From positions 1 to 64,000 of the forward strand of contig NIVC01001912.1 of assembly GCA_002269645.1 (NCBI GenBank): a DNA stretch of 64,000 nucleotides, written 5' to 3'. Shown here one piece after another: positions 1-32,122 of this stretch; positions within the stretch are counted from its first letter, which is position 1, and each line of letters begins with the position of its first letter. The stretch is from Macrostomum lignano (taxonomy: Eukaryota). The notes beneath the pieces were generated by a model that was not told where the DNA came from, did no database searches, and saw only the letters and a list, made by a program, of their open reading frames with translations. The position numbers and the translations under genes were made by a program.

Positions 1-246
1 ATGAATTTGGTCAAACTTTAGAAAAAACGGGAGAAAGCTAAAGGATTTTTTGACAATATTGGATCCAATTTTAGACCAGCTGTTCAGAAAATTTTTAATA
101 AATTAGGAAAAGATTTTAATATCATTGAAAAACACGACGGAAGCGGATTATATCTCGAAATGCGACCAAAAGCAGGTTCAGGAATTTTCTTAAATTCAAA
201 CGTTATGGGCAATGGATTGCTATTACCAAAAGCAGATCTCGAATAG
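1..246 (+). CDS. 3' end of a Polinton small protein with repeated GSGLYL/GSGIFL/GNGLLL motifs (core-protein-like)
   Basis: Manual translation ...KHDGSGLYLEMRPKAGSGIFLNSNVMGNGLLLPKADLE*, stop at 244-246; the 5' part is outside the window or frameshifted. Confidence 0.5.
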
Positions 247-330
247 GCTCCTGGGGGGAGGGTCTGGACACCAAAAACACAAAATTAAAAAATCAATAAT
301 TCAAACATTATATAAATTTTATTCTATAAA

Positions 331-3300
331 ATGGAAGCAATTTTAGCTCAAATCGACAACCTGAACTTAGAGCACAATTAATAGCTCAAATCGAGCACAA
401 CGAATTGCGATAGGGCTGAAATAGAAGCAAGAATTAGGGCAGAAAATGAGATACGTTTAGAAAGACAATTAAATGATATTGATAACCCAACCACAAGGAC
501 AAAATGGAGCTGAAGTAATATATATAGATATAGATATAAATACAAATTATAAAGAATATTTTAAACAAATGAAAGATAAATTAAAGACCATATTAAACAA
601 TTATACTATAAGGCCAAATAACAAACGACAGCCAATTAAGTATAAAATAGAAGTTGAAACAGAATTTAAAAAACCAAATATTCTTAATGCAAATTCAGAA
701 ATTGAAGTAATAAATAACTTTTCACAAGAATCATATAAAACATTATTATCAATGGGAAATTACAACAATCAATTCGATCAAATAGAAGCTGAGTTTGATG
801 AATGGATAGATAAGATGACAGAAAACGGATCTGGGTTTATATTTGTATCTGTAATTCAGCAATAGTAAAGATTGCACCTATAGAAATTCTTAAAGGACGA
901 TCACATATGAAGCTCAATTTAAATCACCTATGATTATAAATCCAGACAATAAAGATAATAAATGTTTATTATGGTGTTTATTAATTCATAAATATCACAA
1001 TCAAGTAGAATCACACATTAATAAAATATATAATTATAGACAATATGAGGATGAAATAATAATGAAAAACATATCATACCCAGTAGCAATAGATGATATA
1101 TATAAGATTGAAAAAATGAATGGTTTAAATATTAATGTGTTTACAATTGAAGAACCAAAAGATCTAGAAGAAATTCAACCGATCCAGAATGGTATAAGAA
1201 AGGTGTTATCTTGTTAAGCCAGCAACTGATATAACAGCACCAGATCAAATCGATCTTTTGTACATACAGCGCGAAAATGAAACACATTATATATACATAA
1301 AAGACATTAGTTCTTTTTAGAGAAAATAGAAATAGATATCCACTATGTAGAAATTGTTTCACATTTAAAAAGGATGAAACAGCTCTTAAAAACCACCAAC
1401 GATTTTGTTTAGATCACAAATTTACTAATGCTATAATGCCAGCATGAAGATGCAACCCTAAAGTTCCAACAACATTATATGGCAGTTAAAAAACCAATAG
1501 TAATATATGCTGATTTTGAAGCAACAAATGTTCCCTTAAAAGAATCACAGACAGTATCTGATGGTGAATGCACAAAAAAATTGGCACAACAGTTTCCGAA
1601 TAGTTATTGTATATATGTACACTCGTAGCTGATCATATATTTAAATCAAGGATGATTACTTACCACGGTAATGATGCAGCTAAGCACATGGCAGAATCAT
1701 TAGTAAATGTATTTGAATATATTCAAAATCAATATGATAAATTATCAAAAAATATTAATATGACAATAAGGATAGAGACAATTATAAAAATGCAACAAAT
1801 TGTTTTATGTGCAAAAGATATTTAAGTAAGAAAAATAAGATACGAGAACATTGTCATCTAACGGAATTATCGAGGGGCAGCATGTAGATCATGTAATGCA
1901 AAAGAAGGAAAAGGATGTAAGGAAATACCAGTATTTTTTCATAATGGTTCCGGATATGATTTTCATTTCTTAGTTCGAGAATTGCTTCATTTAGGAAAGG
2001 ATGAATATGAAATAAATATATTACCTAAAACATCAGAAAATTACATATCAATAACATATGGTAAGAAATACTCCCATCTAGTTTTTCTAGATTCCTTGAG
2101 ATTCTTATCAACATCTTTAGCAAATGTTGTTTCATCATTAGTTCCAAAACCATGGGATTTAGAAATAGTAAAGAAAAACTTTCCAATACTATTGAATCGT
2201 TTCAAAAAGAAAAACTATCCGAGGAAGAACTAATGCTATTAACTCGTAAGGGCATCTATCCATATGAATATGTAACATCTGAAGACGTATTTTTCATACC
2301 GAATTAACCCCAATTGAAAAGTTTTATTCAACATTATCACAAACAAATATAAGTGAATCGGATTATGAACACGCTCAAAAAGTATGGAAATACTTTAATT
2401 GTAAAACATTTAAAGATTATCATAATCTATATCTTAAAGCAGATGTTCTCCTATTAGCTGATGCATTTGAAAACTTTAGGAATCATACATATGAGAATTT
2501 TAAAATTGATCCCGCATATTGTTTCAGTGCACCGGGATTAACATGGGCTTGTGGTTTGAAACATACAGATGTTAAGATTGATTTACTAACTGATCATGAT
2601 ATGTTGTTAATGATTGAGAGAGGAATTCGCGGCGGATTCTCGGGTGTACTAGGAGATAGATATACTAAAGTAAATAATAAATATCTACCAAATTATAATA
2701 AAAAAGAAAAATCATCATATGTATTATATCTAGATGCAAACAATTTATACGGTGGTTGTATGAAACAAAAATTACCAATAGCTGATTTCCAATGGGAAGA
2801 TGACCCCGATTATTACAAAAATATTCCCGAAGGAAGGGGCTGTATCGTAGAAGTGGATTTGCAATATACTCGGGAAGCAAAAGCAAAAACATATAAATAT
2901 CCTTTAGCTCCAGAGCATTGTTCAGTTAATGAAGATGATTTATCACAAACACAAAAAGATTATCTTAAAGCAGATAATGCAAAACATCTAGCAACAAAAA
3001 AATTAATATTAAATTTACATGATAAGAAAAACTATGTAGTGCATTATAAGCTTCTACAATTTTATGAAAAGCAGGGATTAAAAGTGTCTAAAGTACATCG
3101 AACAATATCGTTTATTGAGGAAGATTGGTTAGCTAAATATATTGACTTTAATTCAAATCAGAGACAGATGTCAAAAACAAATTTTGAGAAAGATTATTGG
3201 AAATTAATGAATAATGCTTTTTATGGAAAAACGGTTGAAAATATTAGAGATAGAACCCAATTCCATTTAGAAAAGGATATTGATAAAGCAAAGAAATATT

Positions 3301-4234
3301 TCTCAAAACCTAACTTTAAAGATTTTATAAAATTTGATGATAACTTTATGGGTATTCATATGAGAAATAAAACAACAAAATTTCTTAAACCAATATTTAT
3401 TGGAATGGTTGTTTTAGATTATGCAAAGCTAGTAATGTATGAATATTATTATGATGTTATAAATAAAACATGGCCAGATAACTATCCAATATATGCAGAC
3501 ACCGACAGTTTGGTATTTAAGGTTGAAACAGATGACGGACGGAGCCGCGAACCAAAGGTTCGATGTCTATAAAGATATGGAAAAAATTAAGGATACATTG
3601 GATACCTCCGACTATCCGGATAACCATCCTTTAAAATCAGATCAAAATAAAAAAGTTGTACTTAAAATGAAAGATGAATTAAATAGCAAAATCATAACCG
3701 AGTTTATAGCAATAAGATCAAAATGCTATGCATTTAAAGTTTTAGGACAGGAGGGAGAGGTAAAAAAATAAAAGGGGTATCAAGGCAGCAGTTAAAAAGA
3801 TAACATTTGATGATTATAAAAACGTACTTTTAGATTACCTTAATACAATTGAAAATTATCATGCTCCACAATATCGATTAAATTCAGATAAGCATCAGAT
3901 GTTTGTCATCGAGACAGATAAAAAAACATTAAGTCCATTTGATGATAAAAGATATTTAGATGATAAAATTAAAACATATCCATATGGTTTAAAAGAAGAG
4001 ATAAAAAATATGATAAAAGATAAAAAACAAAAAGAAGATATAATAAGCAAATATAATGAATACAAAGAGGCAATAAATAATTATTATTACGATTGTGATT
4101 GCGAATCCGAATGTGATTGTGAATATAATACATTTCTAGAATATGAAAAAGATATAGATAATTATTATTCAACATTTCCAAAAGAACTTAAAAAATTAAA
4201 CAAGGAAAAAGTCTTGATAACTGGAAGAGATTAA
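331..4234 (+). pseudogene. polB: Protein-primed family B DNA polymerase (pPolB), broken by several frameshifts/stops (decay or assembly error)
   Basis: ORF pieces carry exonuclease motifs (VIYADFE, FHNGSGYDFHF, FLDSLRFL), polymerase motifs (YLDANNLYG, KLMNNAFYGK, YADTDS) and C-terminal LSPFDDKRY; aaaATG start at 331. Confidence 0.92.
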
Positions 4235-4438
4235 CAGAAAAATTACTTATCGGGTCTGTAAAAAACCAAAGCATGTAATTGTTTGAGCAAATCATTAACT
4301 TCAATTTCATATATTATTGAGCACCAATTATCCTCACAGTCGGCAGGGTAACTTAAACAATCTTTATTTTTTTCCTAAGTTTTTTTATTTTTCTAACAAG
4401 ACGATCAATTTTCAATTTCAATTACTATTTCAGCATAA

Positions 4439-4642
4439 TTAATTGCTTTTGTATAAAACGTTTTCTTTTATCCAAGTCGTATCGGATAGGAAACATATCA
4501 TCGTATAAATCAACTTCGTTCGATCACCATAATCACTATAAAACATATTATTTATTTTTTTATTAATATCATTAAGTTCACGCTCTTTAGTGATAAGGAT
4601 TTTTATCGTATCATCGATACGCGTGCTTTGCATTGTCTCCAT
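4439..4642 (-). CDS. Polinton hypothetical protein (contains a degenerate double-hairpin unit at 4605-4636)
   Basis: 67-aa ORF with aaaATG context inside the element; no recognised domain. Confidence 0.4.
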   Translation of the reverse strand: METMQSTRIDDTIKILITKERELNDINKKINNMFYSDYGDRTKLIYTMICFLSDTTWIKENVLYKSN

Positions 4643-4663
4643 TTTCTTATAAAAAATTTAAAC

Positions 4664-4993
4664 TTATTCGGGGTCATCCTCCCAAACCGAAGCCAATTTT
4701 ACAGTCCTATCACTCTTTTTATTTTTTGGTTGTTTTAGTTTAAATTGCAACCCACTCTCCAGACTGTATTTCATAACAAACGCTTTTGGTTTATTAATAA
4801 CTAAAACAGGAAAATTTTTAACATCATCTCCGCTTAGACATAAAATTTTTTGCCCATCTAATTGTAAAAATATTGATTGAAGCCCAATAAATTTAACCTG
4901 TCTCAAACATATAATATTATATTCTTTATTCTCCAATATATTGGGTGTGAGATAATTAATCACATTAGAATCGGTTTTGAACCAGCTCTCCAT
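4664..4993 (-). CDS. Polinton hypothetical protein
   Basis: 109-aa ORF with aaaaATG start like other viral genes; tightly packed. Confidence 0.55.
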   Translation of the reverse strand: MESWFKTDSNVINYLTPNILENKEYNIICLRQVKFIGLQSIFLQLDGQKILCLSGDDVKNFPVLVINKPKAFVMKYSLESGLQFKLKQPKNKKSDRTVKLASVWEDDPE

Positions 4994-5099
4994 TTTTAAT
5001 CTAAAAAAATAACAAAAAAATGAAAGACATTTATGTTTGTAATAAATGTAACGTGACTATGCACAGAGCTCAAACAGCAAACGGAGATATATATCATAT

Positions 5100-5531
5100 G
5101 TGTATTCATGTTCTAAAATATATCAATTTGAAAAAACAAAAAAGATTGAAAACTCATATTACTATTTTAAAAACACAATTTTAAGAAATCTTACAAGAGA
5201 CATTTCTCATCCAATTTTAATTCCCGGAAATAATGTTTATTTATATAATAACTTTTTCCATTTAAATAAAGGAAAGGGATTAAGTTCGAAAGACGCTGAA
5301 AGGATTTTAATTTTAGTTGGATATTATTTTAATTTTCTTATTCGAGAGAATACAAAGTTTATAAGGATAGGTAACATACCTAACGAAATGTTACTGAAAA
5401 AGTCATTGGAATTTTTATGTATTGATAAAAAATTTAAACCTAGGATTACAAGAGAATTACCACTTTGGGAAGAATATATAACATATGCATTAGAAAAACT
5501 AAACAACATTAAGTTCTACCGCACTACCTGA
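5100..5531 (+). CDS. Polinton hypothetical protein
   Basis: 143-aa ORF within the element; no motif recognised. Confidence 0.45.
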   Translation: MYSCSKIYQFEKTKKIENSYYYFKNTILRNLTRDISHPILIPGNNVYLYNNFFHLNKGKGLSSKDAERILILVGYYFNFLIRENTKFIRIGNIPNEMLLKKSLEFLCIDKKFKPRITRELPLWEEYITYALEKLNNIKFYRTT

Positions 5532-5622
5532 CCTCGGGCTTTGTACTCCCATACTCATAGTTTCGGTTTGTATTCAATAGTTTCTATCGGAGGAGCTTTG
5601 GGTTTGTCCAAACGCAATTCCT

Positions 5623-6172
5623 TCAATTCCATATCGGTAAAAGTTTCAACATCAAAATTCTATTTCTATCTTTTAAATATTTTTCATATAACTCAACCGC
5701 GGTTGATAATTCATGAATAGTTATCTCTCCGTCATCCAATATTTTTTGCACATATAAATATAATTGATTTTTATATTGTTTTGCAACATCTCTTAAAGAT
5801 TTATATTTTTCCTTTCTTTTTTTAAGATATAATTTAATTGCTAAAAGTATTGATAAGTTCCTGATCAATTCAAAACCTGATATTGAGCCAATTGAAATAC
5901 CTAAAAATAATTGAGATAAATTAAGAGTTGGAAATGATTGTAAAACACCTAAAACATTACACATAACATCGATAAGCTTCCAAATCCAATATTGAAAAAA
6001 TCCATATTTCTTATATGGTTTGAAACTCTTCTTACTTTTTTAGTATATAAATCATAATCATAGTTAATACGATCAACATTACTTAACATGTGACCCTTGC
6101 GTTGGTCGTGCATAGCACGCGAACCTTCGGTCGGTCAAAATGTTCCCTTTTATCTGCTTCAGATACCGACAT
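5623..6172 (-). CDS. Polinton membrane protein (hydrophobic segments, KILDDGEITIHEL motif); frame restored by one base missing in the hairpin unit at 6105-6136
   Basis: The 113-aa track ORF extends upstream to MSVSEADKREHFD... (ATG 6172) if one T is added in GGT(T)CG. Resembles the conserved Maverick protein with a 'KALxDGxIxxxEF' tail. Confidence 0.55.
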
Positions 6173-6256
6173 TCTCGTCTATTTTTAATAGCACCAAAAT
6201 GAATTCCCCACGCTCTTTGGGTATTTGCCCGGAGCTTAATAGGTATTGTATTGGAC

Positions 6257-6484
6257 TTATTCTTTCTTTTTTCTCCCATTTAAATCCAATTTCCAAAACT
6301 CTTGAAGTATAATATGATTTTTTAATAATTTAATTAATTCTTGAAGCTTCTTATTATCCTGAACATTTACAGTACTAAATAAAAATTTGGTATGAGATTT
6401 GAATGTTTTTATATTTGATTCTTGTTTAGGAATAGGAATAATAACATTATTTTGCCGCATCGATGGAGTTCTACTAAAAGCCAT
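6257..6484 (-). CDS. Polinton hypothetical protein
   Basis: 75-aa ORF with aaaATG start; may be frameshifted at its 3' end. Confidence 0.35.
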   Translation of the reverse strand: MAFSRTPSMRQNNVIIPIPKQESNIKTFKSHTKFLFSTVNVQDNKKLQELIKLLKNHIILQEFWKLDLNGRKKKE

Positions 6485-6570
6485 TTTATATAGAAATATT
6501 TAAGGTATTGTGCATAGCACGCGTATCTTCGATACGATCGAACCTTTGGTTCGCGACTTAGGCTTTAGCC

Positions 6571-8499
6571 TTAGGCGATTTCGGTTTGTGGCCGTTCCAA
6601 ATATGCGGTCGCAGCAAAATCATATCCTGCCGATGTGCTACCACAAACGGCTGCACCACGAATAAAATGTGCAGCATCCGATCCTCCAGTTCGAGCACCA
6701 AAACCCATAAGAGTTCCCGTTTTATCTAAATCTCCCCAAGTTCCACTATCATATGTAAAAAAGTTTTGCCCAATTAGCGTATATGTATTAGCTGATACAT
6801 TGTATGTGCTTATTTGATACCAAACTCTTTGATTTAAAATATTAATTTCAAAAAGATGCCAATCGCCGTTATCAATATTAGCATAGGTTATAGTTTGATC
6901 TGCGTCATTAAGAACATCATTACGAGCTGTTGCACCGTCTGATTTTATATTGCTCCAAACAACCCCAACTCTATCATGCCATTCACTCGCAAACACAATC
7001 AAGCCGGCGCGGGTTGTTAACCCGGATCCAAATTCACTTGTTGGACGTTCGTGACAATATGCATAAAACCAAACCGCATCAGCACCACTTCCTGTAGCAT
7101 TAGCAACTCGGAAATAGAAGGAGGCGGAGATATTACGAAAATGGGTGAAATTAAATTGCAACGCTCCAGACTGACCACTTGCTTCATCAGTAATTCTAGC
7201 TCCATTTTGATAATCAATATAAGTAGCGTTACCAACAAAACTTCCAGTTGGAAAAATATCACCGGCTGTGGTTGGGTTTTGATATCCAGTCCAATTGCAA
7301 ATTACAGGCTCGTACAAAGCGGCATCGATTGCAGGTATTCCATCCAATTTTATTTTATCATTAAAAGACATTCGGCCATCCGCCGTTTGTGTTACTCGCG
7401 TATCAACATAACCTTTAGTAACAACAGAACTGTTATTGTTTATAGTAGAGATATTAGTAATTGTATTACCTCCCATATCAATTGATTGATTAACCACTCC
7501 CAAATTTAAATCAAGAATTGTAAACGTCTGTCTATAAATCTGGAAGGTTGACAGACCCGGGTTGGTTGAACCCGAGTTGATGTAAGACAGAACAATCTGA
7601 AATATGAATATGTTTTATCAAAATTTTGTGTGACATTAATTGTTTGAGTTGAGTTATTTATTGCTACAGAACTATCCGCAGGTATTAATACGTCCCAACT
7701 TGTATTGTCATTACTTCCCTCAAATCGCCATGATGCTGGGTGCTCGGTTGAAGGTGATGGCCTACCACGTAAATCAATTTTATAACACATTATTGCGGAA
7801 GGGCATTGGACTTGAATCCAATAATCGGTTTGAGTATTATTGGTCGCCCAATCTGTTGCATTATCTCCATCAAAAGCTTTCCAGCTTGCAAAATCGGTTG
7901 TATTAAATGCTGTGCTGGCTGTAATTGCAAAACCATTTCCACTCCAATCTGACATAGTAGGTATGTGGCCGGTTTCAACCGTTTGGAATCGATCCTGCTT
8001 TAAGGCTCCACCTCCAACTAAATTATCAACTTCGGTTTTGGTATAGGAATCAGTTATATCTCTTTTTAAATTTAAGGAATTATCAACTTCAGTTTTGCTA
8101 TAAGAATCAGTTATATCTCTTTTTAAATTTAGGGAATTATCAACTTCGGTTTTGGTATAGGAATCAGTTATATCTCTTTTTAAATTTAGGGAATTATCAA
8201 CTTCAGTTTTGGTATAGGAATCAGCAACATTCCGTTTTAAATTTAGGGAATTATCAACTTCGTTTTGTATAAGAATCGGCCGTATTGCGTTTTAAATTTA
8301 GGGAATTATCTATTTGAGTTTTGGTATAGGAATCTGCAACATTTCTTTTTAAATTTAGTTTAGTATCAACTTCACTTTTTTTATAACCTTCATCTTCATT
8401 AATATATCGGTTATCTCCGAATGTAACACTTATTCCACCAGAAGTACCACCACCAGTACTTGATGTTCCGTTCCATGAGGGTGTTCCAGAAAATAACAT
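6571..8499 (-). CDS. Fibre/spike-like protein: 19-aa repeats + F5/8-type C (discoidin-like) domain + legume-lectin-like domain; two apparent frameshifts
   Basis: ORFs 8254-8499, 7506-7955 and 6571-7503 join into one frame after fixing indels near 8265 and 7575 (...GSTNPGLSTFQIYRQTFTILDLNLGVVNQSIDMGGNTITNI...). Motifs: SYTKTEVDN repeats; ASWKAFDG...W...WIQVQ; GSGADAVWFY. Confidence 0.7.
8031..8385 (-). repeat. 57-bp coding tandem repeat (~6 copies, SLNLKRDITDSYTKTEVDN)
   Basis: Unit aattatcaacttcggttttggtataggaatcagttatatctctttttaaatttaagg on the + strand. Confidence 0.9.
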
Positions 8500-8509
8500 T
8501 TTTTACTGT

Positions 8510-8977
8510 CTATTTTATAGAGTCTAAAATCATCTTAAATACTTCGGGGGGTTCCTTCGAGTTATTGATCGAACCTTTGGTTCGCGGACTCCGTCCGATC
8601 TTATATAAAAAATACAACGCAGCCTGTCCGCAATAACTTTTATCAAAGGTTTGAAACTGTCCGTGATAATCTCCACATAAACGATTTTTAGTATGATTAA
8701 ATTTGTCTTTTATTTCCTGTAACGGAGGAAGCGCGTATGAATCAAAAAAATAAACAAGTTTCGGTTTTGAATAAACTGCTGACCAATGAACACCATTTTC
8801 TTTTGTTGTTTCAATATTAACAATGAAAGATCCATATCTTGGTAAGTCTTTTATCTCATCCCGCATAACACATCTGAATGGTTTTATTTTTAACTGCCTC
8901 GCCCAATTTGTTAATTCGATATTGCTTGTTGTGTCTGTTCCATATCGTTGTTTAAAATCATCCCACGTCATGGTCAT
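8510..8977 (-). CDS. Adenain-like cysteine (maturation) protease
   Basis: GVHW, FDSY and QFQTFDKSYCG catalytic motifs; carries an in-frame 10-aa hairpin-derived insert (GRSPRTKGSI). Confidence 0.9.
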   Translation of the reverse strand: MTMTWDDFKQRYGTDTTSNIELTNWARQLKIKPFRCVMRDEIKDLPRYGSFIVNIETTKENGVHWSAVYSKPKLVYFFDSYALPPLQEIKDKFNHTKNRLCGDYHGQFQTFDKSYCGQAALYFLYKIGRSPRTKGSINNSKEPPEVFKMILDSIK

Positions 8978-8978
8978 T

Positions 8979-9152
8979 TTATGTTCCTGAAAAACTCTTG
9001 GTTTTAGTTAGTTTCGTAGGTGTGGGTTTTAATAGTTCCTTTCGGATTTTTTCTGCCTGTAATTGTTTCAATTTTGTTAGTTCGATTTCATAATTATCCT
9101 TTGCGTTTTGAACTTTTTCCGTTTGTTTTTTTAAAGCATTGTTGTTACCCAT
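8979..9152 (-). CDS. 57-aa basic small protein (MGNNNALKKQ...), below the ORF-track cut-off
   Basis: taaaaATG start; exactly fills the gap between penton and protease; N-terminal Met-Gly. Confidence 0.55.
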   Translation of the reverse strand: MGNNNALKKQTEKVQNAKDNYEIELTKLKQLQAEKIRKELLKPTPTKLTKTKSFSGT

Positions 9153-9162
9153 TTTTACAGTA

Positions 9163-9948
9163 CTAAACCTGTTTTATACGTAAAATTATTGTTATTGACT
9201 GCCCACCAAAACTTATTAATCTATCGCTTTCATCTACAATCCTAATATAAATTGATTGAACATTATATTGATTTAATGGGTAATATATTGGGGTTTGAGG
9301 TGATACAATCATTTTCTCTCCAATTGGAACAGCAAGAAATGGGATTGAATAAATAATTCCACGTTGAACCAAAACTCCGTTATCGTCTGTTATATAACCA
9401 CCGTTTGAAATGTCGGTTGTTATATTAATTGTATTTACTCCACCCTCTATATTTCCAACTGTATCACCGGTGCTTGATGTGGTAACTATTCGGGAATTAA
9501 ATCCAAGTATGGTTCTGAGTGAATTTGCAATTGTGAAATCAACCTGATATCCGGATTCGAGTGATAGTGTGAATCTTCCAGACGGTAAATCAACACCTAT
9601 AACAATTGCTCCTGCTACCCAATCTCCATTAGCTGTTAATTCTCCTTCTATATAAGCATTCAAATCAGTATAGCTATACGCACCCGGGCTAACACTAAAT
9701 GTTGTCCAATTGGCTCCGGAATCTTTAGAATATCTAAATTGATTATTTGTTGCATTAATTAATTGAGGCATGTTGAAAACCGAAAATAGTATTAAACCTA
9801 TTTGATAACTTAGGCTTTGATCGAGTTGTAATGGATCGCGCAATTGAATCCGTTGCTCGCTGGTTGTCATTATAAACTGTAATGTTGTACTAAATTTTGA
9901 ATTAGTTCGATCTACCAATTGTTTTATAGTATTTAAATTTGTAGTCAT
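9163..9948 (-). CDS. Minor capsid protein (penton, single jelly-roll)
   Basis: Maverick penton-like motifs (INATNNQFRYS, PGAYSYTDLN, LRTILGF, YYPL, VDESDRLISFGGQSITIILRI); taaaaATG at 9948. Confidence 0.8.
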   Translation of the reverse strand: MTTNLNTIKQLVDRTNSKFSTTLQFIMTTSEQRIQLRDPLQLDQSLSYQIGLILFSVFNMPQLINATNNQFRYSKDSGANWTTFSVSPGAYSYTDLNAYIEGELTANGDWVAGAIVIGVDLPSGRFTLSLESGYQVDFTIANSLRTILGFNSRIVTTSSTGDTVGNIEGGVNTINITTDISNGGYITDDNGVLVQRGIIYSIPFLAVPIGEKMIVSPQTPIYYPLNQYNVQSIYIRIVDESDRLISFGGQSITIILRIKQV

Positions 9949-9981
9949 TTTTATAGTGGGAAATCGTGCCATAGGCACGAA

Positions 9982-10773
9982 CTAAGTCTCTTCTTCCTCA
10001 TTATCTTCTTTTATCAGATCTCTTAAGATTCGATTTTTCCTTTCTAACCTAGGGTTGATATATATATGTTTGTATTGGCTATCTCCCAAATTTTTTTACA
10101 CAAGCTTTTAAATGGTTTTGTATCCAATCCAGGATTAAATCTAGCGTGTATATTTTGTAAATCATAATTATCTAAATCAAACATTACACAACAACTTGCA
10201 TTCTTTTTTATAATCGATTCTAATTCTCTAAAGGACTGTGTTAGATAAAAAGCTCCGATTCCATCTCCTCTACCACTAACAAAAATTTCCTTTTGCAATT
10301 CTTGATCACCGTCATTAATACAATCATCAAAAATAATTAGTGTTTTATCATTTTTTGGAATTTGATCATAGCCTAATCGGGTTGATACTCTAACAGTTGG
10401 GGCTCGTTCGGTGATGTTTTCTGGTTCGAACCTTTGGTTCGCGGACTCCGTCCGATCTTCTGCCATTTTTTACATAAATCCTCAATGTCATCGAGTGTAA
10501 ATCGCGGTTCGTCATCATCCTCATATTGCTCATATGCTCTTAACATTCTAAACAAGACATCTTTTTTTAATTTGTTTTTTAATCCATGTTTAAGAAATTC
10601 ATAATATTTTATTCTAGGTTTATTAGTATAAATTATTAAATTATTATAGTCTAGCATTCCATCGTTGTTAACAGGTCATAAACAAAGTGTGTTTTTCCTT
10701 TACCCGACCCACCAATTACTAAACAAAGAAAAGGATCATTTGGAAATATTTTATTGTGTTTTGCTTTTACCAT
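9982..10773 (-). CDS. A32/FtsK-like genome packaging ATPase (apparent frameshifts near 10650, 10470 and 10060)
   Basis: Walker A GGSGKGKT (~10700-10725), Walker B LIIFDD, SGRGDGIGAFYLTQS, IIKKNAS. ATG at 10773; probable C-terminus ...RDLIKEDNEEEET*. Confidence 0.88.
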
Positions 10774-10825
10774 TTTTTAAGTAAATAATTTAAAGTGGGG
10801 CGACGGTCGGAGACCTGCACTCATT

Positions 10826-12298
10826 TTACAATGGTGCGTCCCGAACAACCGTGCCATCAGCTTTAGCAATTGACAAATATTCCTCTAGAAACAATACGTG
10901 GGCGTCGATTGCCTGATTACCGGTTTTATTAATCTCTAACATATAATTAAGTCCAATATTGGCTATGTTTTCTTTCTGTGCCGTTAGATCATAAACAACC
11001 ACTGGATGGATGTTTAGAAACTCTGTGGGTGTGTACTGAGGAACGGCATATGCTTCATTTTTGGCATAATCGTGATAATATTTTATAAAATCATTAACAT
11101 CATTATTTGCAATATTTAGATTAAGAGGATCTTTAACCGGATAGTATTGGTCATCAACCTGCAGGCGGATATTCTGAACATTAAACTCGTTAATTGCAGC
11201 AACTGCGTTGTCTGTTGCGGTAGCTGCTTGTGCTGCTATGTCACCCGATTGAAGCCAATATAAATCCCCATTTGCTCTTTTACTCCTTCTGTTTGTTATC
11301 CTAAACCAAACAAAAATATATCTCACCCGACGTTTTGATGTCAGTATTTGCCACTGGAATGAATCCTGGTTATTATTAATGGTTCGCATAAAATGTCGAC
11401 GATTCAAATAAAATATTTCCTGATCATGCGTTAACTGATTATCGATGTGTTTTAAAAGTGGGGCTGTTACCTCAATAGTTGGTACGACTAATTGAATTGA
11501 ATCTATACGAACTGCTATATCGGTTGAAATTGAGGTTCCATAAAGTATCCTAGGCTGATATCCACCAGATATTTGCAACTGTATCCCAAATTTTAATCCT
11601 TTCCATACCCGATTTGGTGAGAAAAACCCAAATAGTGGAAAGATTGAAAAGTCCTGCTCATATGCTGTTGCTGTGGTTAAAACCGCGACTGGGAATTTAT
11701 TCTGACGATCTATAAAACCGGTGTTAATAGCTTTTGTATTAGTCATAGTGGTTACAACTGGAACTATATTGGTATTAAGGTAAACAATTAGAGCTGCAGT
11801 ATCTGCACCAGCTGCGTTTTGTACATTAGGGAAAACTACTGCTTGACCATTACCTTTATCCGGCATCCACCCAACATTATCACCAACTTGTTTTGATAAA
11901 TAAGTATAATTTAAATGTTTCAAAACTCCATTAATCTCTGCGGGATTTGATGCTGTCTCAACCTCGGCTCCATTAACTGATAGTTGGGCTTGGGAAAAAC
12001 ATTTATAAAACCAATCATTTTCTATTATTATTCCGGATCGATCTGCGATATCTCCGGCTGCAAGAGCAGTTCCATCATTTCTAGTATATAACCATCTAAC
12101 ACGGAAAAATGCATTTTTCATATCCAATATAGTGTTGGTTGCGCCGATGTCAAAAGTTACCGTTCCAGTAGTAAAGTTATTTGAATTATCACTTGTTGGT
12201 AGGGTATAATTTAAATCTCTTGCTCTGACCTCATTAATATACTGTCGGTGCTTTTTGAAATGAAATTTATCACTCCACATAGTTTTTGTTTCAGCCAT
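10826..12298 (-). CDS. Major capsid protein (double jelly-roll)
   Basis: Intact 490-aa ORF with Maverick MCP-like N-terminal motifs (FDIGATNTILDMKNAFF; FSQAQLSVNGAEVE) and C-terminal VVVYDLT; lies next to the ATPase and penton. Confidence 0.8.
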   Translation of the reverse strand: MAETKTMWSDKFHFKKHRQYINEVRARDLNYTLPTSDNSNNFTTGTVTFDIGATNTILDMKNAFFRVRWLYTRNDGTALAAGDIADRSGIIIENDWFYKCFSQAQLSVNGAEVETASNPAEINGVLKHLNYTYLSKQVGDNVGWMPDKGNGQAVVFPNVQNAAGADTAALIVYLNTNIVPVVTTMTNTKAINTGFIDRQNKFPVAVLTTATAYEQDFSIFPLFGFFSPNRVWKGLKFGIQLQISGGYQPRILYGTSISTDIAVRIDSIQLVVPTIEVTAPLLKHIDNQLTHDQEIFYLNRRHFMRTINNNQDSFQWQILTSKRRVRYIFVWFRITNRRSKRANGDLYWLQSGDIAAQAATATDNAVAAINEFNVQNIRLQVDDQYYPVKDPLNLNIANNDVNDFIKYYHDYAKNEAYAVPQYTPTEFLNIHPVVVYDLTAQKENIANIGLNYMLEINKTGNQAIDAHVLFLEEYLSIAKADGTVVRDAPL

Positions 12299-12332
12299 TT
12301 TTTTAAGTTAAAAAAGTTTTTTATGTTAAAAA

Positions 12333-12998
12333 ATGAGTCAATTTATGGACGTTGATGGAGAGTTAGCGATTTATAAAGAGAAGCAAAGATATTCTGATTT
12401 TGTTAGAAATTTACAAAAAAGAAAGTTAGGAATACAATTAGCTGGCGAAAGATTTGCTGCTCCTTTTGTTAATCCTATTACTGGGAAAATTAGTGAACTA
12501 GAAAAAACAGATAAAGACCTTCTGGAAAAAATTGCTACGAATACTGAGCCAAAAGAGGATGAAATTTTGGATGAGCCGCCTGCTTATGATGTTGATCAAG
12601 CTCAATTGAGAGTTGCAGAGTTTAGGGCTGCAGATAGGGATGGAGTTGAACAATTTCCAAGAGTACCAGCTAGTATTGCTGTGACAGATTTAGGTAATAA
12701 TAATTATCGAATTGGTAGAGTTGATAAAAATCGGATTGAACTATATAGAGAATTGGGTGGAGCATATAATATTATTATGAACCCTAGGGTAAAATTTAAC
12801 CCTGAATTATATACTAGGGATGAATTAGTAAGTGCAAAAATTTTTTATGATGAGTTAGGAGGAGCTGTTAAAAATACAAGTTTGTATAAAAGAATTATTA
12901 TTTCTATAAATAACAAACCAGCTGTTGGAGAAGGATTTAAAACACCGCGAAAACTTGTTTTAGCTGCTGCGAAAGCTGCTGGACATACTGGTGTTTAA
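12333..12998 (+). CDS. Polinton conserved hypothetical protein
   Basis: 221-aa ORF with aaaaaATG start; C-terminal LVLAAAKAAGHTGV resembles the 'L..A...AGNT' tail seen in Maverick proteins. Confidence 0.6.
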   Translation: MSQFMDVDGELAIYKEKQRYSDFVRNLQKRKLGIQLAGERFAAPFVNPITGKISELEKTDKDLLEKIATNTEPKEDEILDEPPAYDVDQAQLRVAEFRAADRDGVEQFPRVPASIAVTDLGNNNYRIGRVDKNRIELYRELGGAYNIIMNPRVKFNPELYTRDELVSAKIFYDELGGAVKNTSLYKRIIISINNKPAVGEGFKTPRKLVLAAAKAAGHTGV

Positions 12999-13025
12999 TT
13001 AATTGTTAAATTTATTTTTTATAAA

Positions 13026-13655
13026 ATGGAAACTAAAAAGATTTGTAGTCGATGTAAAGAAGAGAAACCAATGACTAAAGATTTTTTTAGATGGAGAAAT
13101 GATTCAAAAAAATTTAGAAATGATTGTCGATCTTGTGAGAAAGTTATATCAAAACTGTGGAATAAAAACAATAAAGAATATATAAAAAATAAATATCACA
13201 CTGATGAAAATTACAAACTTATTATCACCTCACGAAATAGAATAAATCAACTATTAAAATCAAATAATGCTCGAAAAAATAATCATACTATTGATTACCT
13301 TGGTTGCTCAATTGAATTCTTTATTGATTGGTTAAATTTCACAAAACATTATTATGTTCCAAAAGACTATGGTGGTGCTTTACATATTGATCATTTTATT
13401 CCTGCTTCTTCATTTAATTACAAAGACGAAGATCATATGAAAAAGTCTGAACATTGGACAAATAAAAGATACTTAGCTGCTATTGATAATAAAACTAAAT
13501 TTGTTAAACAACCAACAATTGAAGAATTTGCAAAACAATTGGTGCTATCATGTATTTTTAAGGCTATAAAAAATGAGCAATCATGCGACGCATGCGAACC
13601 GAAGGTTCGATCGGACGAAGTCCGCGTTCCTTCGGAACGATCAATTAGTATTTGA
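13026..13655 (+). CDS. Free-standing HNH endonuclease with N-terminal CxxC...CxxC zinc ribbon
   Basis: KICSRC...DCRSC; YLGCSIEFF; LHIDHFIPASSF...HWTN..L...DN.TK, the pattern of large-DNA-virus/phage HNH nucleases. Confidence 0.85.
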   Translation: METKKICSRCKEEKPMTKDFFRWRNDSKKFRNDCRSCEKVISKLWNKNNKEYIKNKYHTDENYKLIITSRNRINQLLKSNNARKNNHTIDYLGCSIEFFIDWLNFTKHYYVPKDYGGALHIDHFIPASSFNYKDEDHMKKSEHWTNKRYLAAIDNKTKFVKQPTIEEFAKQLVLSCIFKAIKNEQSCDACEPKVRSDEVRVPSERSISI

Positions 13656-15213
13656 AGGAGGATTGTTAGATGTTCAAAAAGGATTAACAAGCTTACCGAG
13701 CGTTTTTACTACTGGGAGGTATACAAATGAATTACACATGCCGTCTTACAACTTCGCAGGTTAACCCGTGGCCTGAGTGAGGAAGGCAATGTCCTTGCTA
13801 GTCACTATTTGTGGCGACATCTTCAAATTGCGTGAAACCCGTCATACAGCTTCAAGTACCACTTCAATTGAGAAATCTTTTGAAGGAACAGAGGTAACTC
13901 CTCTTCCCAATGGTAAAAAGCTTGAAGACATGGTGGCAATGCGCAGCCAAGCTCCTAAGTATTTTAAATATAAGGAGAAGGTTCAGAGAGCAGACGGAGA
14001 TGGGCGGTAATTATCGCCGCTTAAGGTGTGCTCCAGCCTCATTCGAAAGATTGAGGGTAAACTGCCGGGGACTCGCTTAGATTTGAGATTAAATCCTGAC
14101 AATACTCCAAAATCTGATTCAATTCCAATAAATGGTATTGACTGGTTAGCATATTATCATGACTTAGCATACAGAGATGCTGACAAGAACCCGCCCGAGG
14201 AAGCATTAAGATTAAAACATGAAGCCGATCAAAAAATGATTCAAGGATTAGATAACTTGCAGGGATTATCGGTAGGGCAAAGATTAACTAGGTGGATGGT
14301 TAAAAAGATCTTGCAGTCTAAAGTTAAATTTGGTTTGGGAATTAATTACAACCAACATGGAAATAATTGTGTCGAGTGTTTATTATTAAGTGGTGGTGGG
14401 TTAAGTTCTGATGAGGCAAAGATTCTTCATAAAGAATATCGAAAACCGAAATTTTATAGAAAAATCATGAACTTCAAAAAGAATGAAATTTGGTATGCTG
14501 ATTTAATGTCGATGCCGAACGAAAGAGGATATAAATATATCTTAACCATATTAGATGGTTTTACTCGATACGCGTGGGCTGTTCCTTTAAAATCCAAAAA
14601 GGGAGAGGAGGTTGCTGCTGCTTTTAGAAGTCTTGGAGAAAAAAGTGAACGGTTGTGTGTTGATGAGGGAAAAGAATTTTACAATCCTCATATGTATAAA
14701 TTATATCATTTTGAAAAAGGACAAGAAAGGAAAAAAGACGCGAATGGGGAGTATATTAATAAAATTTATTCTATTTATGGAGAAAGTAAAAACGCATTAA
14801 TAGAAAGATTTAATCGAACTTTAGGTAAGAAATTATGGTTTCAGTTTAGTCTTAATGGAAACCAAAAGTGGGTAAAAATATTACCAGACGTTGTAAAAGA
14901 TTATAACAATTCATATCATTCGGCGATAAAGATGACTCCTCAACAAGCTTATAACAAACCTGAAAATGTTAAGGTTACTTTTGGAGAATTTGAAAAAAAG
15001 AAAACTAAAGGTTTTAAAGTTGGTGATTCTGTTTATATCTATAAATGGAAAGATAAGTTTGAAAAGGGAAGAAAAGGATATTGGAAAATAAGTGAGAAAT
15101 TTACTATCAGTAAAGTTTTAAATACCAATCCCACAACCTATATAATTGCTGATAAGGATGGTGAAGAAATATTGGGTTCTTTTTATGAGAACCAGATAAT
15201 GTCTGCGAACTAA
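13573..15213 (+). CDS. PLA2 (parvovirus VP1u-like)-integrase fusion, join(13573..13761,14065..15213), 445 aa after splicing
   Basis: Spliced junction gives ELHMPSYNFAG|PGTRL (Ca-binding loop), followed by YYHDLAY and EAD; rve integrase D-D-E (WYADL, CVDEGKEFYN, IERFNRTL) and SH3-like C-terminus (FKVGDSV...GSFY). Both exons are in the same frame. Confidence 0.92.
13762..14064 (+). ncRNA. Group I self-splicing intron, subgroup IC1-like, 303 nt, no internal ORF
   Basis: 5' exon ends in U and the intron ends in G. P1 CAGGU/GCCUG. P AAAUUGCGUGAAA (13825), Q AAUGCGCAGC (13938), R GUUCAGAGAGCA (13981), S AAGGUGUGCUCC (14023). P7 GAGCA/UGCUC, P3 CAUCUUC/GGAGAUG, P5abc with A-rich bulge and L5b GAAA, CCUAAG...UAAGG receptor in P6, P8, P9 with GAAA loop, P9.0 AG/CU. 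Confidence 0.95.
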
Positions 15214-15223
15214 GTTCAAACAG

Positions 15224-15421
15224 TTACTTAAGACAACATGGTAGTAAATTTTTTATTACAAACAAAAACAATATTATTACTATTATTGTTACTAATATTA
15301 TTATTGACATTTGTTCAACTGTTATCAAACTTAAATTTTCATTAAGTTCATTAATTGGAACATTTCCGATGTAGGAGTAATCGTGCAAAGCACGCGAACC
15401 ATGGGTTCGATTTACCTTCAT
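15224..15421 (-). CDS. Small single-pass membrane protein (probable start MKVN at 15421)
   Basis: aaaaaaATG context; C-terminal hydrophobic run IIILVTIIVIILFLFVI; in-frame 30-nt hairpin unit at 15380-15409. Confidence 0.55.
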   Translation of the reverse strand: MKVNRTHGSRALHDYSYIGNVPINELNENLSLITVEQMSIIILVTIIVIILFLFVIKNLLPCCLK

Positions 15422-15494
15422 TTTTTTATATATATTTTTCACAATAAATGTCGTTTCTGTTATAGAATAATAGTTCATTTTTTAAATATTTTTT

Positions 15495-15809
15495 TCACAT
15501 AAAAATTTCACTTTCATTCTCTGAATCACTGGTTTCATATGAACTATTTGTTGATTCGGAATCTGTTGATCTAACCTCCCAATCATCCGAATTTAAATAA
15601 TCTCCAAGTTGAAATATTAACTCACCCTCTTGTTCTAAATCATACATCTCATCTAGCTCTAATGGATAAAGTTTTAGGTCATGCTTGTCGTCATATTTTA
15701 AATAAACTTCATCAATTATTCCATTCAAAATATGTTGTTTTATTATCTCTGCATTTTTAGCAACAGTCTCAAAAGTATCACTAACAGAAAAGGTGTAAAC
15801 TCGGGTCAT
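15495..15809 (-). CDS. Acidic Polinton hypothetical protein
   Basis: 104-aa ORF with aaaaATG start and a D/E/S-rich C-terminus. Confidence 0.5.
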   Translation of the reverse strand: MTRVYTFSVSDTFETVAKNAEIIKQHILNGIIDEVYLKYDDKHDLKLYPLELDEMYDLEQEGELIFQLGDYLNSDDWEVRSTDSESTNSSYETSDSENESEIFM

Positions 15810-15913
15810 TTTTAGTAACAGAAAAAGACCCTTCGCGCCTGCGGCGCGGCAGCGGGTTATAGAGATTTGGAAGTGTTAGAAGTGTTGGGGGTGTTGGAAG
15901 AATTGGGGAGTGT

Positions 15914-16177
15914 AGTAGTAGGTAAAACGACGAGTACAGATCAGCCCTTTTTTAATGGCCGTTTATAAGGTTCCAGAGGGGGGACACGAGGGGAGTGTTG
16001 GGAATTAAAAAGAAGTGTTGGGATTGATTTTTATTGTTAGGGGGTTTTTAGATGTCTTTTTGTGTTAATTGTGATTAGATGTGTTTTTTTATTTACCCCC
16101 CGTGTCCCCCCTCTAGACCCTTAAAACGGTCATTAAAAAAGTGCTCTGGGTCTGTACTCGTCTTTTTACCTACTACT
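15914..16177. repeat. Polinton right terminus with internal inverted copy of the terminal ~80 bp
   Basis: 15914-15995 (AGTAGTAGGTAAAACGACGAGTACAGA...GGGGGGACACG) is the imperfect reverse complement of 16096-16177. Confidence 0.85.
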
Positions 16178-16399
16178 GGGGATTCCGATAGAGATGGGGA
16201 TTTGTGTTGATTGGGGATTTCAACAGATATGAGGATTTGTGTTGATTGGGGATTCCGATAGAGATGGGGATTTGTGTTGATTGGGGATTCCGATAGAGAT
16301 GAGGATTTGTGTTGATTAGGGATTCCGATAGAGATGGGGATTTGTGTTGATTAGGGATTCCGATAGAGATGGGGATTTGTGTTGATTGGGGATTCCGAT
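16178..16399. repeat. 35-bp intronic minisatellite (Polinton insertion site)
   Basis: Unit ggggattccgatagagatggggatttgtgttgatt, ~6 copies. Confidence 0.9.
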
Positions 16400-16487
16400 C
16401 AAAATGGGACTTATATTATAATGAAAAATTCTAAGAGACCGAGATTCTGAGGAGGAACTAAAACTGCAAGACGAAGAAACATCTCAC

Positions 16488-18302
16488 CGTAGTCTGGTGG
16501 ACAGCCTCGTAGGTGAGGGTGCCCGAGCGGGACACGATGCCGATCTTGCCGGGCTTGTGAATATGCCCGGGCATGATGCCAATCTTGCACTGGCCGGGAG
16601 CGATCACGCCCGGACAGTTGGGCCCAACTAGGCGACTTTTGGTCTGCTGGCTGAGCCGGCGGCGCACGCGGACCATGTCGTGCTGCGGGATGCCCTCGGT
16701 GATGCACACAATCAGCGGCACCTCGGCGTCCAGAGCTTCGTGTATAGCGGCCGCCGCGAACGGGGCGGGCACGTAGATAACTGTGGCATCGCACTGGGTA
16801 GCTTTGCGCGCCTCCGACACGGTGTTGAACACGGGCAAGTTCAAGTGCGTCTGGCCGCCTTTGCCAGGCGACACGCCGCCAACCATCCTGGTGCCGTACT
16901 CGATTGCCTGGGTGCTGTGGAAGGTGCCCTGCGGGGATTCGGGATGTCAGGCTTGATGCGGTTGGGGGCATGAGTGAGTGATTGCATTGAGTTGGGATCT
17001 GGATAGAATCCAGTTGGGATCTGGATAGAATGCAGTTGGGATCTGGATAGAATGCAGTTGGGATCTGGATAGAATCTGGTTGGGATCTGAATAGAATCCT
17101 GCTGGGATCTGGATAGAATCCAGTTGGGATCTGAATATAATCCAGTTGGGATCTGGATAGAATCTGGTTGGGATCTGGATAGAATCTGGTTGGGATCTGG
17201 ATAGAATCCAGTTGGGATCTGGATAGAATCTAGTTGGGATCTGGATAGAATCCAGTTGGGATCTGGATAGAATCTGGTTGGGATCTGGATAGAATCTGGT
17301 TGGGATCTGGATAAAATCCAGTAAGGGATCTGGATAGAATCTGGTTGGGATCTGGATAGAATCTGGTTGGGATCTGGATAGAATCCAGTTGGGATCTGGA
17401 TAGAATCCAGTTAGGATTTGGATAGAATCCAGTTAGGATCTGGATAGAATCCAGTTAGGATCTGGATAGAATCCAGTTGGGATCTGGATAGAATCCAGTT
17501 GGGATCTGGATAGAATCCAGTTGGGATCTGGATAGAATCCAGTTAGGATCTGGATAGAATCCAGTTAGGATCTGGAGAGAATCCAGTTGGGATCTGGATA
17601 GAATCCAGTTGGGATCTGGATAGAATCCAGTTGGGATCTGGATAGAATCTGGTTGGGATCTGGATAGAATCTGGTTGGGATCTGGATAAAATCCAGTAAG
17701 GGATCTGGATAGAATCTGGTTGGGATCTGGATAGAATCTGGTTGGGATCTGGATAGAATCCAGTTGGGATCTGGATAGAATCCAGTTAGGATTTGGATAG
17801 AATCCAGTTAGGATCTGGATAGAATCCAGTTAGGATCTGGATAGAATCCAGTTGGGATCTGGATAGAATCCAGTTGGGATCTGGATAGAATCCAGTTGGG
17901 ATCTGGATAGAATCCAGTTAGGATCTGGATAGAATCCAGTTAGGATCTGGAGAGAATCCAGTTAGGATCTGGATAGAATCCAGTTGGGATCTGGATAGAA
18001 TCCAGTTAGGATCTGGATAGAATCCAGTTGGGATCTGGATAGCTATATGGGATCCAGATGAAACAATATAACCTATTGGGATAGAGACAAGGGCCTAATC
18101 TTAAAAATACAGGCAGTATCTAAGAGTGAAGGCGAAATCCCATAAGCCTCACCTGCTTGCCAGTGAAGCCCTGGCAGATGACTCGCGTATCCTTGTTAAT
18201 AGCCAGGTTGGACCGAGTGGTCGCATAGTCAGACAGGAGCCGACTAGTTGCTAGGCGAGTCTGCCTAATGGCCAAAAGTATTCGGGAAGAGGCAAACGAC
18301 AT
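16488..18302 (-). CDS. SUCLG1: Succinyl-CoA ligase alpha subunit, exons 1-2 (18153..18302, 16488..16928); remaining exons lie beyond the Polinton
   Basis: MSFASSR...[14 protein letters not shown]|[25 protein letters not shown]...LVGPNCPG...[15 protein letters not shown]; canonical GT-AG phase-0 junctions. Confidence 0.96.
16990..18042. repeat. 22-bp minisatellite in SUCLG1 intron 1 (~48 copies)
   Basis: Unit gttgggatctggatagaatcca; contains an internal CTGGAT-aga-ATCCAG inverted repeat. Confidence 0.95.

Positions 18303-30014: not shown

Positions 30015-32122
<2,108 letters not shown>

What the first reader, a model, noticed from the sequence alone, without database searches (positions are those of the whole stretch)
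13026..14064. Free-standing HNH endonuclease abutting an ORF-less group I intron: candidate collaborative-homing pair in a eukaryotic virus
Seen: the HNH gene (13026-13655) overlaps the start of the PLA2-integrase gene and ends ~106 nt before the intron insertion site; the intron itself encodes no nuclease. Established: in phages (T3/T7-like DNA polymerase introns; cyanophage psbA intron with F-CphI), a neighbouring free-standing endonuclease cuts intron-less alleles and the intron protects its own allele (collaborative homing). Inference: this HNH may recognise the uninterrupted ...TTCGCAGGTCCGGGGACT... PLA2 site and spread intron plus HNH among co-infecting or co-resident Polintons.
Basis: inference. 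Interest (0 to 1): 0.78.

Follow-up and report, generated by a model that had tools for sequence, protein, structure and literature searches.

The report
Swappable nuclease beside Polinton self-splicing intron
A virus-like element in a eukaryote's genome has a self-splicing intron with a DNA-cutting gene parked beside it, and a sister element has a related cutter inside the same intron, which looks like the phage route by which introns become mobile, although cutting itself is not shown.

Summary
A 303-nt ORF-less group I intron (13762-14064) interrupts the YxGPG loop of a Polinton PLA2-integrase gene, 106 nt after an HNH-type gene. Copies elsewhere in the genome change the story. The HNH sits in an ORF-precise slot that in at least 37 other copies holds an unrelated Eco47II-like PD-(D/E)XK nuclease. 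In a sister Polinton family, a 66%-identical homologue of that nuclease lies inside a related intron at the same site, and 8 of 8 checked nuclease-free copies there are intron-less. The HNH family is itself intron-encoded in giant-virus group I introns. So the slot very likely holds homing nucleases aimed at the PLA2 5' region. For the HNH itself, strict collaborative homing is unproven and its stated refutation is partly met: all 3 intron-less copies (of 131) carry an HNH, 2 of them open. HNH alleles are also only weakly linked to intron alleles. No cleavage or splicing was shown. Best reading: one genome holds free-standing nuclease plus ORF-less intron, nuclease inside intron, and empty sites. 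Interest 0.78.

The parts
12333..12998 (+). Upstream Polinton gene (221 aa, no family); left neighbour of the nuclease slot
   Evidence: present upstream of both HNH and PD-(D/E)XK slot occupants
13026..13655 (+). Slot nuclease, here HNH/His-Me finger type: N-terminal CxxC...CxxC zinc module, long helices, D122-H123...N146...N155; the last ~20 codons come from a palindromic insert and the PLA2 5' end
   Evidence: replaced start-to-stop by a PD-(D/E)XK ORF in 37 copies
13577..13641 (.). Small palindromic insert(s) at the slot/PLA2 junction, absent from many copies; similar motifs at 3547 and 15394
13573..13761 (+). PLA2-integrase exon 1; its last 10 codons are hypervariable among copies and are the candidate nuclease target zone
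   Evidence: dS 0.95 against 0.31-0.42 further upstream in the same exon
13762..14064 (+). ORF-less group I intron (type A), guide sequence pairing with the exon end, terminal G at 14064
14065..15213 (+). PLA2-integrase exon 2 (parvovirus-type PLA2 domain fused to rve integrase)
   Evidence: rve 32.0 bits (cut-off 32.6), Phospholip_A2_4 E 0.019; uninterrupted 431-432-aa frames in natural intron-less alleles
1..15809 (.). Surrounding integrated Polinton-like element, cut by the contig start; polymerase and ATPase genes in pieces; beside an exon of a host succinyl-CoA ligase alpha gene
   Evidence: polymerase, capsid and protease labels are recalled from motifs and have no Pfam hit

Best explanation
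The position between the upstream gene and the PLA2-integrase start is a slot for free-standing homing endonucleases (HNH alleles or an Eco47II-like PD-(D/E)XK enzyme) that cut rival copies in the PLA2 5' region (exon 1 to intron insertion site). Repair from the cutter's own copy converts the region, so nucleases replace one another and ORF-less introns are carried along and/or protect their allele. The PD-(D/E)XK enzyme also exists inside the same-site intron in a sister family, the composite stage of the Bonocora-Shub pathway. SHOWN: the intron, the slot swap, the intron-encoded homologue, the copy counts, conserved catalytic residues. INFERRED: cleavage, target position, protection by the intron, direction (free-standing to intronic). 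For the HNH alone, I put 'cuts the intron-less junction and is blocked by the intron' at about 0.4.
For: Slot swap shares the start codon and the end overlapping the PLA2 ATG. Slot and intronic PD-(D/E)XK are 66% identical over 150 aa; Pfam RE_Eco47II 23.8 and 28.3 bits, cut-off 25.9. Family 2: 28 of 28 Rfam-found introns carry the ORF, and 8 of 8 checked copies without it are intron-less. Family-2 intron+ copies have the last 6 exon bases of family-1 type (27 of 28), while their intron-less alleles lack the U needed at the splice site, as expected from co-conversion. The HNH family fills 4 of 7 large inserts between intron P and Q elements among 80 IMG/VR loci, plus 2 neighbouring introns. 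HNH catalytic and zinc residues are invariant in 10 of 10 allele groups, while dN is 0.217 against 0.029 in exon 2 at similar dS (0.41 against 0.32). Two introns with different cores share the 5' site, each guide sequence matching its exon.
Against: 3 of 3 intron-less family-1 copies have an HNH, 2 open; L031 differs from the window's exon flanks at only 3 of 30 and 2 of 30 bases. All segments of the element are mosaic, so identical alleles in different backgrounds are not special to the slot. Linkage of slot partners: intron 0.77, upstream 0.63-0.70, distal exon 2 0.70; a control centred on exon 2 gives intron 0.72. Near-fixation of introns in family 1 could be a founder effect. 77 of 104 type-A introns end in A rather than G, which is unexplained. 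Slot and intronic PD genes are old relatives (dS 1.26), so no recent jump is shown.
Confidence: 0.6

Rival explanations
1. Intronless homing or marker exclusion only: the HNH alleles cut rival exon-1 or slot sequences and are protected by sequence polymorphism (as T4 SegF/SegG). The intron spread by the intron-encoded PD-(D/E)XK enzyme and lost it, or is a passenger.
For: HNH in 3 of 3 intron-less copies; the two open ones are allele groups not shared with intron-plus copies at 90%. Exon-1 diversity peaks 12-22 nt before the splice site (0.33 against 0.02-0.11 in exon 2). The window's HNH allele travels with unlike exon-1 and intron alleles.
Against: The PD-(D/E)XK enzyme occupies the same slot, and its homologue is tied to the insertion site in family 2; 37 of 37 PD-slot copies have an intron.
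Confidence: 0.25
2. The slot nuclease is a weapon or helper of the element (cutting competitor viruses, host DNA or family-2 elements, or processing the genome for integration or packaging), and its closeness to the intron is incidental.
For: No empty-slot family-1 copy was found; fast amino-acid change in the DNA-binding half (omega 0.76); nucleases are the fifth commonest gene class in these viruses, with unclear role (10.64898/2026.10.13.758929, passages); HNH fused to helicase upstream of rve integrase in cryptophyte PLVs (PMC12220804, passages).
Against: Two unrelated folds swap precisely; one also sits inside the intron; family 2 does without a slot.
Confidence: 0.12
3. Neutral history: decayed integrated copies shuffled by gene conversion, with an inactive HNH and an intron inherited from the founder.
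For: Polymerase and ATPase of this copy are in pieces; 38 of 103 HNH-slot copies fail my intactness filter, some only because the fetched stretch lacks the start; mosaicism is general.
Against: 65 of 103 HNH frames are open with the motif; dN/dS 0.40 in the nuclease half; compensatory changes in intron P9 and P1.
Confidence: 0.03

Closest known systems
Cyanophage S-PM2 psbA intron with F-CphI (collaborative homing; PMC6083498, passages)
   Same: ORF-less group I intron beside a free-standing beta-beta-alpha-metal nuclease; the window protein's best PHROG is endonuclease VII
   Different: Eukaryotic integrating virus; the motif is IDHF, not DHDH flanked by CxxC; the nuclease also occurs in intron-less copies; the slot is shared with a second fold; cleavage not shown
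Bonocora and Shub 2009 pathway to mobile introns (not read; described in PMC2988022 and PMC11296320, passages)
   Same: A free-standing nuclease near an ORF-less intron, and a homologue inside the same-site intron
   Different: Here both stages plus empty sites lie in one genome in two Polinton families; the nuclease seen in both states is PD-(D/E)XK, not the HNH; direction inferred
T4 free-standing endonucleases: intronless homing (SegF/SegG), MobE trans homing, SegH/Hef replacing mobC/mobE (PMC2988022, passages and reference titles)
   Same: Unrelated nucleases replacing each other in one intergenic slot; variable sequence near the presumed target
   Different: The slot is only 110-190 nt from an intron site; eukaryotic element
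Group I introns of Polinton-like viruses of protists (PMC12220804, passages)
   Same: RF00028 introns of about 300-380 nt in PLV genes
   Different: Those reported lie in a short gene before the capsid gene; no PLA2 site, paired nuclease or intron-encoded nuclease in the passages read; supplements not read
Giant-virus group I introns with HNH/GIY-YIG endonucleases (Bodo saltans virus, PMC5871332, passages; IMG/VR loci L264, L309, L325, L342)
   Same: Same intron core motif; the same HNH family is encoded inside such introns; ORF-less offspring introns and trans-acting nucleases were proposed
   Different: Here the HNH is outside the intron, and the intron-encoded enzyme is Eco47II-like, in a 5' peripheral loop
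Alpha adintoviruses / Polintons with PLA2X (PMC8502044, passages)
   Same: Parvovirus-type PLA2 domain in an integrase-bearing element
   Different: PLA2 is fused to the rve integrase; the paper's main text has no passage on group I introns or endonucleases

Membership tests
Group I intron (RF00028) | Core P3-P9 above the Rfam cut-off | tested here: met
   65.9 bits against 50
Group I intron (RF00028) | U-G pair at the 5' splice site and terminal G | tested here: met
   Window: U13761 with the guide, G14064; 77 of 104 sister copies end in A
Group I intron (RF00028) | Splices out of RNA | tested here: inconclusive
   No spliced joint among 8 joints in 4 runs, contigs only
HNH / His-Me finger nuclease | Catalytic D-H and two Asn in a beta-beta-alpha motif | tested here: met
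   H123, N146, N155 invariant and D122 at least 90% in 128 aligned proteins; strand-strand-helix in a pLDDT-95 model
HNH / His-Me finger nuclease | Fold match to solved HNH domains | tested here: inconclusive
   Foldseek rows mostly Cas9 HNH, BrxU, Cap5, but best E 0.15; VIA Z 3.8-5.3 for these, with two unrelated rows higher
DHHRN (F-CphI / endonuclease VII) family | DHDH flanked by CX2-4C and CX2C | tested here: not met
   The motif is IDHF and the four cysteines lie in a separate N-terminal module
Collaborative homing pair | ORF-less intron with an adjacent free-standing nuclease | tested here: met
Collaborative homing pair | Intron-less alleles lack the (active) nuclease | tested here: not met
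   HNH in 3 of 3 intron-less family-1 copies, 2 open. Holds for PD-(D/E)XK: 0 of 37 slot copies are intron-less and 8 of 8 family-2 intron-less copies lack it
Collaborative homing pair | Nuclease cuts the intron-less allele; the intron blocks cutting | not testable with these tools
   Needs a cleavage assay
Collaborative homing pair | Nuclease and intron are co-converted | tested here: inconclusive
   Partner rank 0.77 for the intron against 0.63-0.70 for flanks; control 0.72
Intron-encoded homing endonuclease (family-2 PD-(D/E)XK ORF) | Nuclease ORF in a peripheral loop; present with the intron, absent from empty alleles | tested here: met
   ORF closed by a 9-bp inverted repeat in the 5' periphery; 28 of 28 and 0 of 8
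Polinton / adintovirus | Protein-primed PolB, rve integrase, A32 ATPase, capsids, protease, terminal repeats | tested here: inconclusive
   rve just under cut-off, A32 E 0.008, PLA2 E 0.019; PolB, capsid and protease labels recalled from motifs; termini not mapped

The most novel reading that the evidence does not exclude
An animal-hosted Polinton lineage shows the full birth of a mobile group I intron: free-standing nucleases (HNH and Eco47II-like) drive two ORF-less introns into the PLA2 calcium-loop codons, and the Eco47II-like gene entered the intron, letting the composite invade a sister family that lacks the slot. This would be collaborative homing in a eukaryotic virus, a restriction-enzyme-type homing nuclease, and group I ribozymes in an animal nuclear genome.
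Probability: 0.3. Interest if true: 0.92.

Novelty: new variant of a known kind. Interest (0 to 1): 0.78.

Why it matters
Collaborative homing and the route from free-standing nuclease to mobile intron are described from phages. This genome holds the proposed stages side by side, with natural substrates: empty sites, two introns, two nuclease folds and about 10 HNH allele groups. That makes the model directly testable in vitro in a eukaryotic virus. It also suggests a job for the unexplained nucleases common in Polintons and adds an Eco47II-like enzyme as a candidate homing endonuclease. If the host is an animal (compatible, not shown), nuclear group I introns would be unexpected: PMC10964413 (passages) calls them absent from metazoans except a few non-bilaterian lineages and five shark species.

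Tried and rejected
Splicing: no RNA holder listed; 4 runs laid, contigs only, no exon-exon joint; uninformative. 3' splice site at 14055 (Rfam end): rejected by intron-less alleles and P9 covariation. L186's 1159-nt type-B intron as a nuclease carrier: I saw no nuclease-like ORF in the insert by eye. Type-B intron against Rfam: no group I hit; it is called a group I intron only from its shared 5' periphery, P1 pairing and recalled core motifs. Relatives outside this genome: none in viral contigs with PLA2-integrase or PD-(D/E)XK queries; 0 of 80 fetched metagenome loci (of at least 120) related; the alignment query was unusable. The homologue search for the PD-(D/E)XK protein timed out; its single-sequence fold was unusable (pLDDT 36). 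The PDB sequence search for the HNH gave nothing meaningful. The one-mismatch pattern search was at chance level (54 against 54 control); of 30 fetched loci only the 3 exact hits were PLA2 genes. C393 as an empty-slot copy: a rearranged fragment. Mosaicism as evidence of HNH homing: rejected, all segments are mosaic. Earlier scan findings: none. Literature: no listed title or passage describes this arrangement in searches; subscription papers and all supplements unseen, and supplements of PMC12220804 could list the same introns.

Full report
OBSERVATION. The window is the start of contig C1912 of a 764-Mb eukaryotic assembly. Bases 1 to about 15.8 kb are an AT-rich Polinton-like element with an rve integrase (32.0 bits, cut-off 32.6), a weak A32 ATPase and a weak parvovirus-type PLA2 hit. 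Polymerase, capsid and protease labels are recalled from motifs; the polymerase and ATPase are in pieces. Next to it is an exon of a host succinyl-CoA ligase alpha gene, about 78% identical to the best PDB chain (counted by hand; that the chain is mammalian is recalled), and a kinase closest to OSR1/SPAK. This is compatible with an animal host but does not show it. Rfam finds a group I intron (65.9 bits). Three natural intron-less copies read straight through the YxGPG loop and fix the intron at 13762-14064; a compensatory change in P9 in 8 of 104 copies supports that 3' end. The upstream ORF 13026-13655 stops 106 nt before the site. Its 83-nt overlap with the PLA2 start is mostly a palindromic insert.

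THE HNH. There is no Pfam hit, but there are 9489 relatives at E up to 0.001. H123, N146 and N155 are invariant in an alignment of the window protein with 127 of the best 150. PHROG endonuclease VII matches at E 1e-11. The model is confident (pLDDT 95); its Foldseek rows are mostly HNH domains, though none is significant. I fetched 80 of at least 122 IMG/VR loci chosen only by a 17-nt motif of this intron's core. Seven have a large insert between the P and Q elements; 4 of the 7 encode this HNH family, and 2 more members lie in neighbouring introns (direct phmmer E 7e-16 to 2e-9 in that small set). Most of these introns sit in giant-virus capsid genes (recalled motifs). So the family is used as an intron-encoded nuclease elsewhere.

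CENSUS OF FAMILY 1. The HNH search scored all 134 candidates and the second-nuclease search all 114. After dropping 8 loci without both exons and 4 duplicates, 131 copies had a resolved junction: HNH with type-A intron 83, HNH with type-B intron 17, HNH without intron 3, PD-(D/E)XK with type A 21, with type B 7. Nine further PD-slot copies all have type A. Some are probably haplotype duplicates: 68 of 116 remain after collapsing. No empty-slot copy was found, but only 150 of 315 PLA2 candidates were scored, and 3 HNH copies are largely deleted. Type B (322-326 nt) shares the 5' site and periphery but has a different core and a guide sequence matched to its own exon variant; Rfam does not recognise it.

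THE SLOT. The second occupant is an Eco47II-like PD-(D/E)XK protein (Pfam PF09553 E 4e-5; ESM Atlas 0.94). It starts at the same ATG as the HNH and ends at the same overlap with the PLA2 start. HNH alleles fall into 10 groups at 54-90% identity. Their zinc and catalytic residues are invariant; dN/dS is 0.76 in the zinc module and 0.40 in the nuclease half, against about 0.09 for exon 2 at similar dS. The last 10 codons of exon 1 are unusually variable (dS 0.95, computed on 37 distinct haplotypes, which inflates it).

FAMILY 2. An Rfam search of the genome (28 candidates scored) returned a second Polinton family, with PLA2 about 60% identical, and a related intron at the same site, 836-895 nt long. 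All 28 carry, in a 5' peripheral loop, an ORF 66% identical to the slot PD-(D/E)XK protein, above the Pfam cut-off in L205. No nuclease lies upstream in the copy with the fullest upstream context (L203). Of 54 family-2 PLA2 hits, 30 have this ORF nearby and 24 do not. I read 8 of the 24, and all 8 are intron-less, with no HNH or PD hit at those places (two are interrupted upstream by foreign DNA). Intron-plus family-2 copies end exon 1 like family 1 (27 of 28), whereas the empty alleles have C at the splice position and could not form the U-G pair. That fits DNA-level homing with short co-conversion from a family-1-like donor (inference).

MECHANISM. An ORF inside an intron, present with it and absent from empty alleles, is the usual signature of a homing endonuclease for that site (established knowledge). 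Its homologue standing free about 115 nt upstream of the same site, always with an intron (37 of 37), is the arrangement of collaborative homing described for F-CphI (PMC6083498, passages), and the pair matches the pathway summarised in PMC2988022 and PMC11296320 (passages). The HNH occupies the same slot and comes from an intron-associated family, so it most likely competes as a functional equivalent. I put this general reading at 0.6. The direction free-standing to intronic is plausible, because family 2 has no slot to receive a free gene, but the two PD genes are long diverged (dS 1.26) and loss from the intron cannot be excluded.

AGAINST. All 3 intron-less family-1 copies carry an HNH; 2 are open with intact motifs, and L031's flanks differ from the window's at only 5 of 60 bases. 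The window's HNH allele (97-100%) occurs in 10 other copies, 8 of which have exon-1 ends only 70-73% like the window's. Mosaicism affects every segment, and slot-intron linkage (0.77) barely exceeds flank and control values (0.63-0.72). 77 of 104 type-A introns end in A with P7 unchanged, which is unexplained. No splicing was seen and nothing was assayed. Strict collaborative homing by the HNH: about 0.4.

KNOWN AND NEW. Group I introns in Polinton-like viruses of protists are reported (PMC12220804, passages; supplements not read). Nuclease-bearing and ORF-less introns are known in giant viruses (PMC5871332, passages). Collaborative homing has been raised for these viruses only as an analogy for helicases or replicases (PMC11296320 and 10.64898/2026.10.13.758929, passages). 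HNH insertions in nematode Polinton polymerases are a different case (10.1101/2023.08.22.554363, passages). Searches listed nothing on a PLA2-site intron, a swappable slot or an Eco47II-like intron nuclease; Bonocora and Shub 2009 and Zeng et al. 2009 were not read. No similar locus was found outside this genome.

VERDICT. Observation confirmed; interpretation partly supported and broadened. It works like a phage homing-nuclease slot beside an intron. Membership of the HNH in a collaborative-homing pair fails one test and awaits the decisive assay. New variant of a known kind; interest 0.78.

Noticed in passing
L067:1637-1962 and 23 other family-1 copies (type-B intron): A second intron with a different core at the same 5' site, sharing the type-A 5' hairpins and P5 region, missed by Rfam. 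Its 3' splice site is unclear: the position matching type A is followed by a stop, while two nearby G positions leave the frame open in 22 of 24 copies.
   Followed up: partly
window 14064 and sister copies: 77 of 104 type-A introns end in A instead of G while P7 is unchanged; exon 2 is open in 48 of them.
   Followed up: partly
window 3547, 13594, 15394; also inside family-2 intron L203: Short palindromic inserts (GCGAACC..GGTTCG core) scattered through the elements, often in frame, polymorphic among copies.
   Followed up: partly
window 15913-16178: About 265 bp bounded by inverted repeats that start AGTAGT, like Polinton termini (recalled), followed by a ~30-nt tandem repeat; possibly a mini-element or element ends.
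   Followed up: no
window 16458-16886 (-): Host succinyl-CoA ligase alpha exon followed by a GT donor, so the element may lie in a host intron.
   Followed up: partly
window 6571-7955 (-): Two fibre- or lectin-like genes, one with an F5/8 type C (discoidin) domain.
   Followed up: no
L066 and L183 groups: Longer HNH alleles (198 aa) with a different N-terminal half occur only with type-B introns (11 of 11 intact copies).
   Followed up: partly
L509 (G000:C1049): A more distant, intron-less PLA2 copy with no nuclease in the 850 nt read; possibly a third family.
   Followed up: partly
L264, L306, L309, L325, L326, L342 (IMG/VR): The same HNH family encoded inside group I introns of giant-virus genes, with no Pfam model for the window's member.
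   Followed up: partly
window 30021-31148 and 55617-57243: A weak GIY-YIG hit (E 0.026) and two RtcB pieces in host DNA.
   Followed up: no
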